Shown here in pieces: positions 16,241 to 20,000 of a stretch of DNA of 20,000 nucleotides; the first letter of the stretch is position 1, and each line of letters begins with the position of its first letter. The stretch is from an uncultured virus (IMG/VR IMGVR_UViG_3300027374_000004) (Duplodnaviria; Heunggongvirae; Uroviricota; Caudoviricetes): the IMG/VR virus record IMGVR_UViG_3300027374_000004; one strand, given 5' to 3'. The translations under genes and the position numbers were made by a program. The notes below the pieces were generated by a model, which saw only the letters and a list, made by a program, of their open reading frames with translations, was not told the DNA's origin and ran no database searches.

Positions 16241-16444
16241 TTAGACGTTTTCGGTAAAAAAAAGATCTGCTACTGTTGTGCCAAGAGCTTTTGCAATTTT
16301 TGCAAGGGTTTTGGTAGTCGCCTCTTTAGAATCATCGTTTTCGATCATAGAAATTGTTTGACGACTCACGCCACTTCGCTCGGCAAGTTCTTCTTGGGAC
16401 ATTTTTTTTGCCTTACGAAATTCCTTGATTTTGTATCCCATCAA
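16241..16444 (-). CDS. Cro-like XRE HTH regulator
   Basis: MSQEELAERSGVSRQTISMIEN; divergent from the repressor. Confidence 0.92.
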   Translation of the reverse strand: MMGYKIKEFRKAKKMSQEELAERSGVSRQTISMIENDDSKEATTKTLAKIAKALGTTVADLFFTENV

Positions 16445-16483: not shown

Positions 16484-16512
16484 ATAATACAGCCGGCTCC
16501 TGCTGTTGTCAA
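16484..16512 (-). promoter_or_regulatory. Early (cro) promoter
   Basis: TTGACA-17bp-TATTAT on the minus strand. Confidence 0.75.
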
Positions 16513-16553
16513 GTGCTTTTTACAGATTCTGTCAAAAATTTTTTACATTCCCC

Positions 16554-16582
16554 TTGACAACGCCATATCTACAATGTAAAAT
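16554..16582 (+). promoter_or_regulatory. Repressor promoter
   Basis: TTGACA-17bp-TAAAAT. Confidence 0.75.
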
Positions 16583-16612
16583 CTTATTGTCAAGTAGAAA
16601 GAGGGGGAGCAC

Positions 16613-17239
16613 ATGACATTAGCCAAATTGATTTCAGAATACAGGAAATCACATGGATTTTCTCAGCGACAAATGGGAGCTCAATGCGGCTTGTCAACTG
16701 GCTATATTTCCTTAATTGAAAAAGAAGTAAATCCACAAACGGGAAAGCAAATGATTCCCACCCTTAATGTCTTAAACAAAATTGCAAAGGGCATGAATAT
16801 GACGATTGATGAGCTCTTTTCCGTGTGTGACGATATGCCCGTCAATACAAGTGAAAGCGAAACTGAATCAGAGCCAAGTTTTACAGGAGAACAAATTGGT
16901 CACCGCATCAAAGAGTGCCGTGAAAGAATTGGTATAACTCAAACTGATCTTGCTAACTCAATCGGTGAATTAAAGCAAACAATATATAAATATGAATCTG
17001 GTTTTATTGAAAATATCCCGATTAAGAAGCTGGTGCTTATAGCTGAACATTTGAAAGTGTCTCCAGGTTACCTTATGGGCTGGGAAGAACACCCGGATCA
17101 AAAAGAAAAACCTGCCCCCAAGGAAGGGGACAAGCTTAGTTTGGAGATTATGAATTTGTTTTTTTCGTTGCCGGAAGAGAAGCAGCGGGAGGCCTTACAC
17201 TATCTCCGCTATCTTGCAGAGAGCGAAGGAAGGAAATAA
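16613..17239 (+). CDS. Phage repressor with two tandem XRE HTH domains and a short C-terminal helical domain
   Basis: FSQRQMG..CGLSTGYISLIE and ITQTDLA..IGELKQTIYKYESG..YLMGWE; no S24 peptidase domain. Confidence 0.9.
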   Translation: MTLAKLISEYRKSHGFSQRQMGAQCGLSTGYISLIEKEVNPQTGKQMIPTLNVLNKIAKGMNMTIDELFSVCDDMPVNTSESETESEPSFTGEQIGHRIKECRERIGITQTDLANSIGELKQTIYKYESGFIENIPIKKLVLIAEHLKVSPGYLMGWEEHPDQKEKPAPKEGDKLSLEIMNLFFSLPEEKQREALHYLRYLAESEGRK

Positions 17240-17309
17240 GCGCAAGCTTCTTTTCGTTTGACAGAGCGCAAATTTCCCGGTACATGAGATCCAGTTCTTT
17301 CACATTCAA
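17148..17309 (-). CDS. Small antisense protein (53 aa) resembling the repressor C-terminus; candidate anti-repressor
   Basis: TTG 17309 follows AGAAAGAAGTGA; upstream TGTGTTATAAT; peptide similarity to the repressor tail. Confidence 0.55.
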   Translation of the reverse strand: MNVKELDLMYREICALSNEKKLALISFLRSLQDSGDSVRPPAASLPATKKTNS

Positions 17310-17393
17310 GACAATCACTTCTTTCTGTTTTGCTGTGCTCGGGAGGTGAAAGAATTGTAGCAAAATCTACAGGACTTTGCTTGAAGATGGAAG

Positions 17394-17431
17394 ATTATAA
17401 CACATGGCCGAAACCGGCAACATTATGTTGC
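17394..17431 (-). promoter_or_regulatory. Leftward extended -10 promoter with upstream palindrome
   Basis: TGTGTTATAAT (17404-17394, minus); GCAACAT-T-ATGTTGC at 17417-17431. Confidence 0.55.
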
Positions 17432-17467
17432 GGTTGAAATAAAATAAGCATACAACGAGGGGATTGC

Positions 17468-17941
17468 ATGGAAGAAAAAAAGTATGAAATTGAAGTACCA
17501 TTATCCTATGGATCGCTTTGTATTGATGGAAGTAATCTTATCATTGTACAAAAGAAATCCGAAGAAATAATTCCTATTGCAAATATTCAATCTTTCTATC
17601 TGTCTGAGCCAAAAGGTTATGTTAGACCTAGGGGGAAAATCAAATTCACAACTGCGGCACATGGAACCGTGGATATTGTCAATTTAGGATTTGGAATAAG
17701 TAGTGCTTCTGACAGCGGACGTCAATTCGTTTATTATGAAGAAGATTATGAGGCCGCAAAGCAAATGAGAGATTACATTTCAAATTTTAACTCCACACCC
17801 AAAAATGTGAATGTACAGCCTCACAAAGAGGAACCGGTATCTACAGCAGATGAGATTAGAAAGTTAAAAGCATTGCTTGACGAAGGAATATTGACCCAAG
17901 AAGAGTTTGCGGCCAAGAAGAAGCAACTGCTAAACCTATAA
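17468..17941 (+). CDS. SHOCT domain-containing protein
   Basis: C-terminal ADEIRKLKALLDEGILTQEEFAAKKKQLL; GAGGGG RBS. Confidence 0.88.
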   Translation: MEEKKYEIEVPLSYGSLCIDGSNLIIVQKKSEEIIPIANIQSFYLSEPKGYVRPRGKIKFTTAAHGTVDIVNLGFGISSASDSGRQFVYYEEDYEAAKQMRDYISNFNSTPKNVNVQPHKEEPVSTADEIRKLKALLDEGILTQEEFAAKKKQLLNL

Positions 17942-18020
17942 AAATAGAAAATGCCCTCCGGCGCTACCAACACCAGAGGGCAAGGAGATCTACCGGCGGG
18001 AACCGGCAGAATAATCGTGC
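17941..18020 (-). ncRNA. Putative ~80-nt antisense RNA to the integrase leader, ending in an intrinsic terminator (hairpin 17952-17982)
   Basis: Minus-strand TTGATT-17bp-TACAAT (18055-18027); stem TGCCCTCTGGTG/CGCCGGAGGGCA with G-U pairs on minus, then TTTTCTATTTT. Confidence 0.6.
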
Positions 18021-18037
18021 AAATATATTGTACCGCT

Positions 18038-18067
18038 TCCCGCCAAAAAAATCAAGGCGGGATTTTT
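18038..18067 (+). terminator. Intrinsic terminator just before the integrase RBS (candidate attenuator)
   Basis: TCCCGCC-11nt-GGCGGGA-TTTTT. Confidence 0.6.
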
Positions 18068-18097
18068 GCGCCCTTTTTTAGGAGGTATAGGTACAAT

Positions 18098-19153
18098 ATG
18101 GCAAAAGCAAAAAGGCTACCTAGCGGGAGCTGGAGAGTACAAGTGTTTGTCGGTAAGGAGGACGGAAAAAGAAGATATAAGTCCTTTACTGCGGAATCAA
18201 AATGGGAGGCTGAATATCAAGCCAGCCAGTATGCCAGGAATCGCAAGGAGAGAAAAAATGTGATGAATATCACCGTCTGTGAAGCTGTTACTCGTTATAT
18301 AGACAGCAAGGATGGGGTTATTTCACCGGCTACAATAAGAGGATATCGATCAGTGCAGAACAATGGGCTGCAGAATTTGAAAGACGTCAAATTGAAGGAT
18401 CTGACCAATGAAGCTATCCAGCAGCAAATTCGAGCCAAAATTAAAACCCATTCCCCTAAGACGGTCTTAAATGAACATGGGATACTAACCGCTGCTCTAA
18501 ATATGTTTTATCCTGAATTTCGGGTTAATGTATCTTTACCTCAGAAGAAAAAACGCCCTCAAACTGTTCCCACTGATACCCAGGTAAAAGAGCTCCTGGC
18601 TCTGGCAAAGGGAAAGGACATAGAATTGCCGATCATACTTGCTGCCATGGGGAGCTTGCGTGAAGGAGAAATAGCTCCTCTAAATGTTGAAGATATCTTA
18701 GAATACGGTGTAAGGGTAAATAAGGATATGGTCAGAGATCAATACCAAAAGTGGGTAATCAAGATGACTCCAAAAACAGATGCCGGGAACCGTGTTGCGC
18801 CATTGCCCAAAAAAGTAATACAAATGCTGAAAGAGTACACCAAAGAGAAAGAAAGTGAAGATAGGATTTTCGTGATGACCCCAGAGGGAATATATGACCG
18901 TTACAAGAAACTAAGAAAGAAATGCGGAATGGACAAATGCCGTTTCCATGATCTTCGGCACTATTATGCCAGCGTTGCCCATTTGTTAGGTGTACCAGAT
19001 CAATATATCATGAAAAATGGTGGCTGGACAGACAAAGGTACTCTCCAGCAAATATACCAACACGCTCTTTCGGATCACGAAGAAATGGAGGACAAGAAGA
19101 TTACAGGCCACTTTGAAATGTTTCTAGACACAAAAGGCGAAGAATCAGAATGA
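18098..19153 (+). CDS. int: Tyrosine recombinase / phage integrase (351 aa)
   Basis: AGGAGG RBS; N-terminal arm-binding domain; LREGEI, TPKT, FHDLRH, GGW, IYQH. Confidence 0.95.
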   Translation: MAKAKRLPSGSWRVQVFVGKEDGKRRYKSFTAESKWEAEYQASQYARNRKERKNVMNITVCEAVTRYIDSKDGVISPATIRGYRSVQNNGLQNLKDVKLKDLTNEAIQQQIRAKIKTHSPKTVLNEHGILTAALNMFYPEFRVNVSLPQKKKRPQTVPTDTQVKELLALAKGKDIELPIILAAMGSLREGEIAPLNVEDILEYGVRVNKDMVRDQYQKWVIKMTPKTDAGNRVAPLPKKVIQMLKEYTKEKESEDRIFVMTPEGIYDRYKKLRKKCGMDKCRFHDLRHYYASVAHLLGVPDQYIMKNGGWTDKGTLQQIYQHALSDHEEMEDKKITGHFEMFLDTKGEESE

Positions 19154-19170
19154 GCTTCTTTTTTGCAAAA

Positions 19171-19194
19171 TTCGTGTTGCATTTCGTGTTGCAT
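19171..19194. repeat. Perfect 12-bp tandem repeat TTCGTGTTGCAT x2; likely integrase arm-type sites
   Basis: Lies between the int stop and the tRNA 3' end. Confidence 0.7.
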
Positions 19195-19270
19195 AACTTC
19201 ATTTTTTTCTTATTTTTGACCCATATTTACTATAAATTCGGTCACAAAAATTTGTGAGAAAAACCAGTAA

Positions 19271-19314
19271 AAAGGCCAGTGTTCATGCGGATTCCCGCAT
19301 AATCACTGGCTTTT
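19271..19314. terminator. Long hairpin at the att junction; probable bidirectional terminator
   Basis: GCCAGTG..ATGCGG/CCGCAT..CACTGGC with A- and T-runs on the two sides. Confidence 0.65.
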
Positions 19315-19319
19315 CTTAA

Positions 19320-19394
19320 TGGCTGGGCTGGCGGGATTCGAACCCACGGGTGACGGAGTCAAAGTCCGTTGCCTTACCGCTTGGCGACAGCCCA
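19320..19394 (-). tRNA. tRNA-Gln(TTG), CCA encoded; probable integration target
   Basis: TGGGCTG acceptor, CT-TTG-AC loop, GGTTCGAATCC. Confidence 0.96.
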
Positions 19395-19446
19395 ATATAG
19401 GAGATACGGAGCCTAATCGCTAAAATTAAACTCCGCATCTTTTAGG

Positions 19447-19524
19447 TGGGGTGGAAGATGGGACTCGAACCCACGGTCTCCAGAGCCACAATCTGGCGCT
19501 TTAACCAACTAAGCTACATCCACC
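19447..19524 (-). tRNA. tRNA-His(GTG), G-1 and CCA encoded
   Basis: CCAGA-TTGTGGC-TCTGG anticodon arm, GGTTCGAGTCC. Confidence 0.96.
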
Positions 19525-19528
19525 ATAT

Positions 19529-19605
19529 TGGCGCGCCAAAAGGGACTCGAACCCCTGGCCTACTGCTTAGAAGGCAGTTGCTCTATCCAGCTGAGCTATT
19601 GGCGC
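19529..19605 (-). tRNA. tRNA-Arg(TCT), CCA encoded
   Basis: ACTGC-CTTCTAA-GCAGT anticodon arm, GGTTCGAGTCC. Confidence 0.96.
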
Positions 19606-19724: not shown

Positions 19725-20000
19725 GGAAAAATTGGAGCGGGTGATGGGAATCGACCAGCGGCTTGCGCCGCTGCTGGCTCGTCCACCCCAAGCTTGTGGC
19801 TTGTGGTACCGGACTCACCGCTCTTCTCTAAAAATGTGCCGCAGGCACATTTTCTTCACGAGAAGACCCCCTTGGGGTTCGATTCCTGTCAAGCTTATGG
19901 AAAAATTGGAGCGGGTGATGGGAATCGACCAGCGGCTTGCGCCGCTGCTGGCTCGTCCACCCCAAGCTTGTGGCTTGTGGTACCGGACTCACCGCTCTTC
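19725..20000 (-). repeat. 174-bp tandem repeat (one full unit plus a partial identical unit), each with a 22-nt tRNA-Gly-like 3' end
   Basis: 19725-19826 is identical to 19899-20000; TCGATTCCCATCACCCGCTCCA (minus) at 19733-19754 and 19907-19928. Confidence 0.92.

What the first reader, a model, noticed from the sequence alone, without database searches (positions are those of the whole stretch)
17941..18097. Antisense-RNA-controlled terminator/anti-terminator switch in front of the integrase
Seen: on +, TCCCGCC (18038-18044) can pair with GGCGGGA (18056-18062) to form a terminator followed by T5 just before the int RBS. Alternatively 18026-18044 can pair with 17995-18013 (GGCGGGAACCGGCAGAATA, 16 of 19 complementary), a mutually exclusive anti-terminator. 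On the minus strand, TTGATT-17-TACAAT points into an ~80-nt unit that covers the anti-terminator arm and ends in its own terminator. Established: plasmids pT181 and pIP501 control rep by antisense-RNA-induced attenuation. Inference: the same logic keeps int silent in the lysogen while upstream lysogeny genes are transcribed.
Basis: partly seen in the sequence, partly recalled or inferred. Interest (0 to 1): 0.78.

Follow-up and report, generated by a model that had tools for sequence, protein, structure and literature searches.

The report
Antisense RNA switch guarding prophage integrase
In front of this gut-phage integrase gene lies a small RNA gene on the opposite strand that most likely flips the integrase message into an 'off' fold, a control layout known from plasmids and found here, with changed letters, before many unrelated phage integrases of gut Clostridia.

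Summary
The window is a Clostridia prophage (cI, accessory gene, leader, tyrosine integrase). Of 155 non-redundant related integrase leaders, 114 carry an opposite-strand -10; of these 94 have TTG at spacer 17-18 and 111 an opposite-strand terminator, giving an RNA of about 79 nt. The arm it covers pairs with a switch segment in 96 of 111. A switchable terminator is predicted in the window and its subfamily (83 of 85), but only kinetically, and in 32 of 111 distant leaders. The cassette precedes both tyrosine and serine integrases. It works like plasmid pT181/pSK41 antisense control. Streptococcal RNAs at the same position are known and expressed (Rfam RF02589), but the window does not match that family and four streptococcal leaders lack the switch arm. 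All mechanism is computed; no RNA data were available. The scan's notes hold other integrase-leader switches, none matching this DNA.

The parts
16554..16582 (+). Promoter-like site of the cI - accessory gene - int unit (inferred source of the leader transcript)
   Evidence: TTGACA-17-TAAAAT, 11 of 12; no plus-strand terminator listed between it and the leader
16613..17239 (+). cI-like repressor, two HTH_3 domains
   Evidence: Pfam PF01381, PHROGs repressor families
17468..17941 (+). Accessory gene with SHOCT domain; its stop codon abuts the 3' end of the antisense RNA
   Evidence: PF09851, phrog_888
17941..18020 (-). Predicted 80-nt antisense RNA: 10-nt 5' tail, stem-loop 1 (18010-17989), 6-nt linker, terminator
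   Evidence: Fold z = -6.0; start placed from the conserved T(-1)G(+1), 91% and 84% of 114 homologues; homologue lengths 58-127, median 79. Not observed as RNA.
17952..17982 (-). Terminator of the antisense RNA; apex UUGGUAG at 17970-17964
   Evidence: 111 of 114 homologues; folds better on the minus strand in 108 of 111; 9 of 10 pairs with two-sided changes; YUGG at the apex in 76 of 111 against 16 of 99 control hairpins
17995..18013 (+). Arm A (pre-emptor): anti-terminator and anti-anti-start arm, wholly covered by the antisense RNA
   Evidence: 16 of 19 with 18026-18044; 96 of 111 homologues beat shuffles
18024..18044 (+). Arm B, the switch segment: pairs with arm A, or with the terminator 3' arm plus the start-codon region; overlaps the antisense -10
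18027..18055 (-). Antisense promoter: -35 TTGATT 18055-18050, 17-nt spacer, -10 TACAAT 18032-18027
   Evidence: conserved geometry in homologues
18038..18067 (+). Terminator-like hairpin (7 bp, 11-nt loop) and U5
   Evidence: -13.3 kcal/mol; basal 7 positions fully paired in 77 of 85 subfamily leaders across 20 arm variants (3' arm was part of the search pattern)
18067..18073 (+). Conserved TGCRCCC after the U tract; can pair with arm B (OFF) or, in most subfamily members but not the window, with GGGYGCA in arm A
   Evidence: Alignment A2: 92% of cells paired, 1 of 7 pairs with a two-sided change
18080..18100 (+). SD (AGGAGG 18080-18085) and start region; 18090-18100 pairs with 18024-18034 in the OFF fold
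   Evidence: B:start pairing beats shuffles in 67 of 110 homologues, G-U:A-C 21:6
18098..19153 (+). Tyrosine integrase, 351 aa
   Evidence: PF00589, phrog_1, 356 homologues at E <= 1e-60
19320..19605 (-). tRNA-Gln, -His, -Arg cluster beside the integrase end (likely insertion region)
   Evidence: same order in L082

Best explanation
A cis-encoded antisense RNA keeps the integrase off in the lysogen by refolding the int leader. int is the last gene of the repressor transcript. Without the antisense RNA, arm A captures the switch segment as it is made; this blocks the terminator's 5' arm and keeps the ribosome-binding and start region open for a limited time (ON). With the antisense RNA bound, arm A is taken away, and the freed segment forms the terminator and, on read-through messages, pairs with the start region (OFF). 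Translation-start occlusion is the family-wide output; premature termination is an added layer in the window's subfamily and some others. Shown: the sequence elements, their conservation, covariation and computed folds. Inferred: expression of the RNA, binding, termination, repression, and the biological timing.
For: Antisense -10 in 97 of 155 leaders strict (shuffles 3.2) and 114 relaxed (12.8). TTG at spacer 17 in 82 and 18 in 12 of 114, none at 15, 16, 19-21. Minus-strand terminator 111 of 114, plus strand 23. A:B duplex -17.0 against -8.3 shuffled and -10.1 non-cognate; 96 of 111 significant. A:B helices have asymmetric bulges in 93 of 110 and loops of 3-21 nt. Segment +3 to +13 from the -10 pairs with arm A when free and with the start region when arm A is removed. 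Cost of opening SD-to-ATG: 4.6 with real arm A, 8.6 with shuffled arm A, 10.4 with arm A removed; real below shuffled in 104 of 111. Held-out loci found by an integrase-independent pattern: -35 TTG 13 of 14, A:B 13 of 14, real below shuffled 14 of 14. Covariation on A2: 14 pairs with two-sided changes against 8.7 in shuffles; the arm A:B pair 90:128 is G-C in 15 and A-U in 12 of 29, at least 3 changes on the tree. Streptococcal RNAs at the same place are expressed in lysogens (PMC4829319, PMC6431027).
Against: No RNA data for any clostridial member. In the window both the terminator (P 0.95-0.98 at 3' ends 18062-18063) and the start-occluding helix (P 0.96-0.99 at 18100-18115) win at equilibrium without the antisense RNA, and 0 of 85 subfamily leaders switch the terminator at equilibrium; ON is therefore only a kinetic state (computed barrier 11 kcal/mol). 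A:B shows no G-U excess over A-C (20:24) and no plus-strand energy preference (45 against 64). 39 of 81 terminator-like hairpins form regardless of the antisense RNA, which the model does not explain. B:start pairing is weaker (67 of 110; cognate in the top tenth in 36 of 110). 41 of 155 related leaders lack the unit. None of 4 streptococcal leaders has the A:B arm. Homologues are related, so counts are not independent events.
Confidence: 0.68

Rival explanations
1. Pure transcription attenuation as in pIP501: the antisense RNA acts only by inducing the terminator at 18038-18067.
For: Arm A holds at least 3 of the 5 basal bases of the terminator 5' arm before the 3' arm is made in 83 of 85 subfamily leaders; anti-terminator P about 0.99 at 3' ends 18044-18058; compensatory terminator variants.
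Against: U tract of only 5; 30 of 111 distant leaders lack such a hairpin and 39 form it regardless; the start-occluding helix is conserved with G-U bias.
Confidence: 0.12
2. The antisense RNA works through duplex cleavage (RNase III) or through collision of convergent polymerases; the folds only set message stability, and cutting off arm A gives the OFF fold secondarily.
For: Perfect 80-bp complementarity; two forms of the streptococcal RNA Spy_sRNA779816 on Northern blots (PMC4829319); convergent transcription matters in pIP501 (PMC5703833).
Against: Does not by itself need the cognate-specific A:B helix or the segment shared between two alternative helices.
Confidence: 0.13
3. Arms A and B are a DNA inverted repeat (operator, or an inverted promoter duplicate) and the small RNA has another target.
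For: No G-U bias in A:B; B overlaps the promoter.
Against: Bulges in 93 of 110 and spacers of 3-21 nt; no conserved plus-strand promoter (11 of 111, shuffles 5.9); no second target: matches of 11 nt or more in 5 of 94 cognate against 12 of 470 non-cognate upstream regions, none above 10 nt in the window.
Confidence: 0.05
4. Chance hairpins in an intergenic region.
For: Promoter-like sites are at chance level in the window alone.
Confidence: 0.02

Closest known systems
Plasmid pT181 RNAI / repC attenuator, and pIP501 RNAIII / repR (PMC5703833 and PMC5435934; passages found by term)
   Same: Counter-transcript of similar size (87 nt in pT181) over the leader; a pre-emptor arm holds the terminator 5' arm; binding frees it; pT181 can repress both transcription and translation.
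   Different: Controls a phage integrase at the end of a repressor operon, not plasmid replication. In the window the SD lies downstream of the terminator and the start is occluded by a separate helix. The antisense promoter is written into the switch segment and terminator loop. No sequence relation was tested or seen in Rfam.
Plasmid pSK41 RNAI / rep (PMC5703833, passages)
   Same: About 83-nt antisense RNA with a 5' tail and two stem-loops, binding upstream of the start region and inducing an SD-sequestering stem without covering the SD.
   Different: pSK41 does not terminate; many members here add a terminator. Different target gene and element.
Streptococcal prophage antisense RNAs upstream of int: Spy_sRNA779816 (Rfam RF02589; PMC4829319, passages) and SP119_SR034/071/086/106 (PMC6431027, passages and supplement rows)
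   Same: Same position and strand, 81-91 nt, TTG-17-TAnnnT promoter, own terminator; proposed to silence int in lysogens. Phage 315.3 leader scores 82.8 bits on RF02589; my model R1 weakly hits the MissE1 leader (E 0.005), which hits RF02589 below cut-off.
   Different: The window and four clostridial records give no RF02589 match at E <= 1. Arm A:B pairing is absent in 4 of 4 streptococcal leaders. The passages I saw give no mechanism.
[quoted passage not shown]
   Same: Antisense terminator loop makes first contact, and binding strengthens a distant SD-sequestering helix. A hairpin of the same pattern came up in a BsrG locus (L392, RF01412).
   Different: Pairs at the 3' end of a toxin message. 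The bsrG terminator hairpin carries complementarity to a YUNR loop that proved dispensable, so the motif alone does not prove a recognition site.
P1 c4 / P4 CI antisense RNAs and IS10 RNA-OUT (recalled, not read)
   Same: Small RNAs of mobile elements silencing a phage or recombinase gene.
   Different: c4 and CI act on short targets elsewhere; RNA-OUT covers the ribosome-binding site directly. Here the RNA covers neither the SD nor a second site that I could find.

Membership tests
pT181/pIP501 antisense attenuators | Cis-encoded counter-transcript with own promoter and terminator over the leader | tested here: met
   Sequence level only:
pT181/pIP501 antisense attenuators | Pre-emptor arm, covered by the antisense RNA, mutually exclusive with the terminator | tested here: met
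   Window and 83 of 85 subfamily leaders; only 44 of 81 distant hairpins overlap arm A pairing by 3 or more bases
pT181/pIP501 antisense attenuators | Antisense-induced premature termination | not testable with these tools
   No RNA run listed; equilibrium folding does not switch the terminator in the subfamily
pT181/pIP501 antisense attenuators | Controls a plasmid replication initiator | tested here: not met
   Downstream gene is an integrase; no match of the leader in the plasmid collection
pT181 (stem-loop IV) | SD inside the terminator 3' arm | tested here: not met
   Window SD at 18080-18085 is outside 18038-18062; met in some homologues such as L084 and phage Roos
pSK41-type antisense translational control | Antisense RNA with 5' tail and two stem-loops binding upstream of the start region | tested here: met
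   RNA 5' end lies 60 nt upstream of the SD
pSK41-type antisense translational control | Binding induces a helix that sequesters the translation start | tested here: inconclusive
   Computed in 104 of 111 homologues; in the window the helix also forms at equilibrium without the RNA; no experiment
Kissing-loop antisense systems | YUNR U-turn in a recognition loop | tested here: inconclusive
   UUGG 56 of 111 against 11 of 99 controls, but generic YUNR 97 of 111 against 66 of 99; which loop makes first contact is unknown
Rfam RF02589 Spy779816 | Score of 67 bits or more on the model | tested here: not met
   No match in the window at E <= 10 nor in 5 records at E <= 1
P1 c4 / P4 CI | Rfam match and short targets elsewhere in the element | tested here: not met
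   No Rfam hit; no second target

The most novel reading that the evidence does not exclude
The unit is a portable RNA cassette, shuffled between unrelated tyrosine and serine integrases, that acts as a kinetic timer and occupancy sensor: Int can be made only from a short-lived co-transcriptional fold, just after DNA entry or when repressor-operon transcription outruns the antisense RNA, and the resident RNA also silences in trans the integrase of incoming phages that share its variable arm A, giving an RNA-coded integration-exclusion specificity separate from repressor immunity.
Probability: 0.25. Interest if true: 0.82.

Novelty: new variant of a known kind. Interest (0 to 1): 0.66.

Why it matters
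In these phages int sits behind the repressor gene on one transcript, so something must keep it quiet in the lysogen. This gives a specific, testable answer that recurs in about three quarters of the related integrase leaders examined, in front of both recombinase classes, and in a cultured phage (Faecalibacterium phage Roos). It carries plasmid-style antisense control over to prophage integration and excision, defines an RNA family with no Rfam match, and offers many natural, probably orthogonal switches for Gram-positive hosts.

Tried and rejected
RNA evidence: no RNA holder was listed for window 16500-19300, so no reads were laid; this says nothing on expression. Rfam: no match for the leader at gathering score or E <= 10. 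blastn of the leader: one weak hit in phages (Roos, E 0.5), none in plasmids. First single-protein locus scan gave 1 locus. A second target for the RNA, a lead from scan note e1-4728288, was not found. A conserved plus-strand int promoter in the leader was not found; one plus-strand site at 17709-17737 inside the accessory gene was not followed up. The open frame from ATG 17951 into int has no SD and L082 lacks that ATG: taken as chance. Of 10 named phage int leaders, my promoter scan showed the unit in Roos and four streptococcal phages, and not in phiCD119, phiEF-1.1, phBC6A52, fOgPSU1 or zrk29-2. Strand-asymmetry tests of A:B gave no support for RNA-level pairing. Ten literature searches found no paper describing this switch; the library lacks most subscription papers. 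Figure S3 of PMC6431027 is a picture and could not be read; the model files of PMC8040213 were not searched, and its integrase-linked candidate RNAs may include parts of this motif.

Full report
Setting. The window is part of a 50-kb virus record. Around the finding lie cro-like (16241-16444, minus) and cI-like (16613-17239, plus) genes, a SHOCT-domain gene (17468-17941), a 156-nt gap, a tyrosine integrase (ATG 18098) and three tRNA genes. The closest integrase in a named genome is 85% identical, from a Neglectibacter (Oscillospiraceae) assembly, with the same tRNA order (L082).

Observation. The three folds beat all 200 shuffles: antisense RNA -39.1 (z -6.0), anti-terminator -21.4 (z -3.7), downstream OFF fold -29.6 (z -4.1). 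The OFF fold holds a helix not noted before: 18024-18034 with 18090-18100, covering the start codon. No Rfam family matches.

The antisense unit is conserved. An alignment of 52 of the 120 listed homologues fetched 240 loci. With the window and L001, 241 gave a tblastn hit, 232 had a start and 200 nt upstream, 206 were unique, 204 had 260 nt, and 155 remained below 80% likeness. A minus-strand extended -10 occurs in 97 of 155 (shuffles 3.2, maximum 6), 114 with a relaxed pattern (12.8); 41 lack it. In the 114, TTG starts a hexamer at spacer 17 in 82 and 18 in 12, and in none at 15, 16, 19, 20 or 21; T then G follow 6-7 nt after the -10 in 91% and 84%, which places the window's start at 18020. 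A minus-strand terminator follows in 111 of 114 (plus strand 23), giving 58-127 nt, median 79; the hairpin folds better on the minus strand in 108 of 111. A plus-strand ORF of 80 or more codons ends at the leader in 88 of 111, and no plus-strand promoter is conserved inside it (11 of 111, shuffles 5.9).

The switch. Arm A (covered by the RNA) pairs with arm B (the -10 region) at -17.0 against -8.3 for shuffled A, 96 of 111 at p <= 0.05, and -10.1 for non-cognate pairs; B pairs with the start region at -12.9 against -8.3, 67 of 110. The bases at +3 to +13 pair with A in the nascent free RNA and with the start region once A is removed. Opening SD-to-ATG costs 4.6 kcal/mol with real A, 8.6 with shuffled A, 10.4 without A; real is below shuffled in 104 of 111; window 7.7, 10.4, 13.4. 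A:B helices carry asymmetric bulges in 93 of 110 and loops of 3-21 nt, unlike a protein operator. Against this, A:B has no G-U excess (20 G-U, 24 A-C; B:start 21 and 6) and no plus-strand energy preference (45 against 64).

Termination is the less general output. A terminator-like hairpin before the SD was found in 81 of 111; 32 are predicted to switch, 39 form either way, 30 leaders have none (the script keeps the lowest-energy hairpin, which in the window is an extended fold). For the window's subfamily I scanned viral contigs with a pattern from the terminator 3' end: 117 stretches, scan cut at its limit. In 85 unique leaders with a -10 anchor the basal 7 positions are fully paired in 77, over 20 arm variants (partly circular, since the 3' arm is in the pattern and the 5' arm was chosen by folding). 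Arm A holds at least 3 of the 5 basal bases before the 3' arm is made in 83 of 85, yet at equilibrium the terminator forms with or without the RNA (0 of 85 switch). In the window the anti-terminator has P 0.98-0.99 at 3' ends 18044-18058, the terminator 0.95-0.98 at 18062-18063, the anti-terminator again 0.71-0.74 at 18075-18085, and the start-occluding helix 0.96-0.99 at 18100-18115; the computed refolding barrier is 11 kcal/mol. ON is thus a co-transcriptional trap, which is an inference from an equilibrium program.

Covariation. On 29 subfamily leaders (A2; L246 and L319 left out because no integrase follows) 91.9% of cells pair against 82.4% in shuffles, and 14 of 27 pairs change on both sides against 8.7; 9 of these are in the antisense terminator, 3 in the A:B top helix, 1 in the sense terminator, 1 in the GGGYGCA:TGCRCCC helix. 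Pair 90:128 is G-C in 15, A-U in 12, other in 2, with at least 3 changes on a tree built without those columns. Relatedness inflates such counts.

A portable cassette. Behind the 117 subfamily matches, 71 ORFs hit a profile of the window's integrase family; many others are cut short. Twelve representatives are all integrases: 10 tyrosine, 2 large serine. A second pattern, made only of the antisense terminator and -10, gave 25 loci: 18 have an integrase-type ORF downstream (Pfam: 11 tyrosine, 5 serine; 2 truncated without a hit), 7 do not, one of which is a BsrG locus. Of 16 loci given to a held-out test 14 were analysed (L379 and L383 were not matched by the script): -35 TTG 13, A:B 13, real below shuffled 14, more closed when bound 13 (two pairs are near relatives). 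Model R1 gave 61 matches in 60 of 92 sources, 60 at int leaders and 1 elsewhere, and one match in the window's own record. Cultured Faecalibacterium phage Roos has the unit with its SD inside the induced hairpin.

Recognition loop. The apex of the antisense terminator holds YUGG on one strand in 76 of 111 (controls 16 of 99) and UUGG in 56 (11); the commonest apex includes UUGGCG, the loop shared by plasmid loop-loop antisense systems (PMC3753616, passages; U-turn rule in PMC4485353, passages). Generic YUNR does not discriminate (97 of 111 against 66 of 99), and in bsrG/SR4 one such loop was dispensable (PMC3834814). This is suggestive only.

What is known. pT181, pIP501 and pSK41 supply the mechanism (PMC5703833, PMC5435934; passages). 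Antisense RNAs of 81-91 nt upstream of int are expressed in S. pyogenes lysogens and were proposed to silence int (PMC6431027, passages and supplement rows; PMC4829319, passages); one is Rfam RF02589. The window does not match it and 4 of 4 streptococcal leaders lack A:B pairing. Ten searches found no description of the clostridial switch; unread supplements (PMC6431027 Fig. S3, PMC8040213 models) may bear on this. Scan notes describe other integrase-leader RNAs; look-ups by sequence and place found none like this DNA.

Verdict. A real, conserved antisense-controlled leader; works like pT181/pSK41 control but is not a member by target or Rfam; new variant of a known kind. How it is turned on (before the RNA accumulates after entry, or by stronger operon transcription on induction) is inference. 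Interest 0.66.

Noticed in passing
window 17108-17425, minus strand: A second convergent unit: extended -10 at 17402-17394, a small ORF within 17363-17148 overlapping the cI 3' end, and a terminator at 17137-17108. May control cI.
   Followed up: partly
window 19170-19193: Tandem 12-nt repeat TTCGTGTTGCA just after int, also in L082; likely integrase arm sites (inference).
   Followed up: no
window 19727-19826 and 19901-20000: Exact 100-nt duplicate; the own record covers the window only to 19844, so it may be an end or assembly effect.
   Followed up: no
L246 1171-1362, L319 1260-1451: The promoter-plus-hairpin half of the cassette without arm A and without an integrase behind it.
   Followed up: no
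L386 1501-1569 and 2501-2570: Two copies of the cassette 1 kb apart, the first truncated and without an integrase.
   Followed up: no
L374, L382, L384, L388, L392, L398 around 1501: The same hairpin pattern as a plus-strand terminator in BsrG-like type I toxin-antitoxin loci; only L392 matched Rfam among the three tested.
   Followed up: partly
L242 against L252, antisense terminator: The terminator loop occurs in both orientations among close relatives (GCGCCAAC and GTTGGCGC), pointing to loop inversion.
   Followed up: partly
L372 (G003:C1:524690-524880): A second cassette in the genome of L154, before a different, zinc-ribbon tyrosine integrase.
   Followed up: partly
L139 3967-4177, minus strand: Weak model match away from the int leader.
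   Followed up: no
window 17709-17737, plus strand: Promoter-like site (10 of 12) inside the SHOCT gene that could feed the leader.
   Followed up: no
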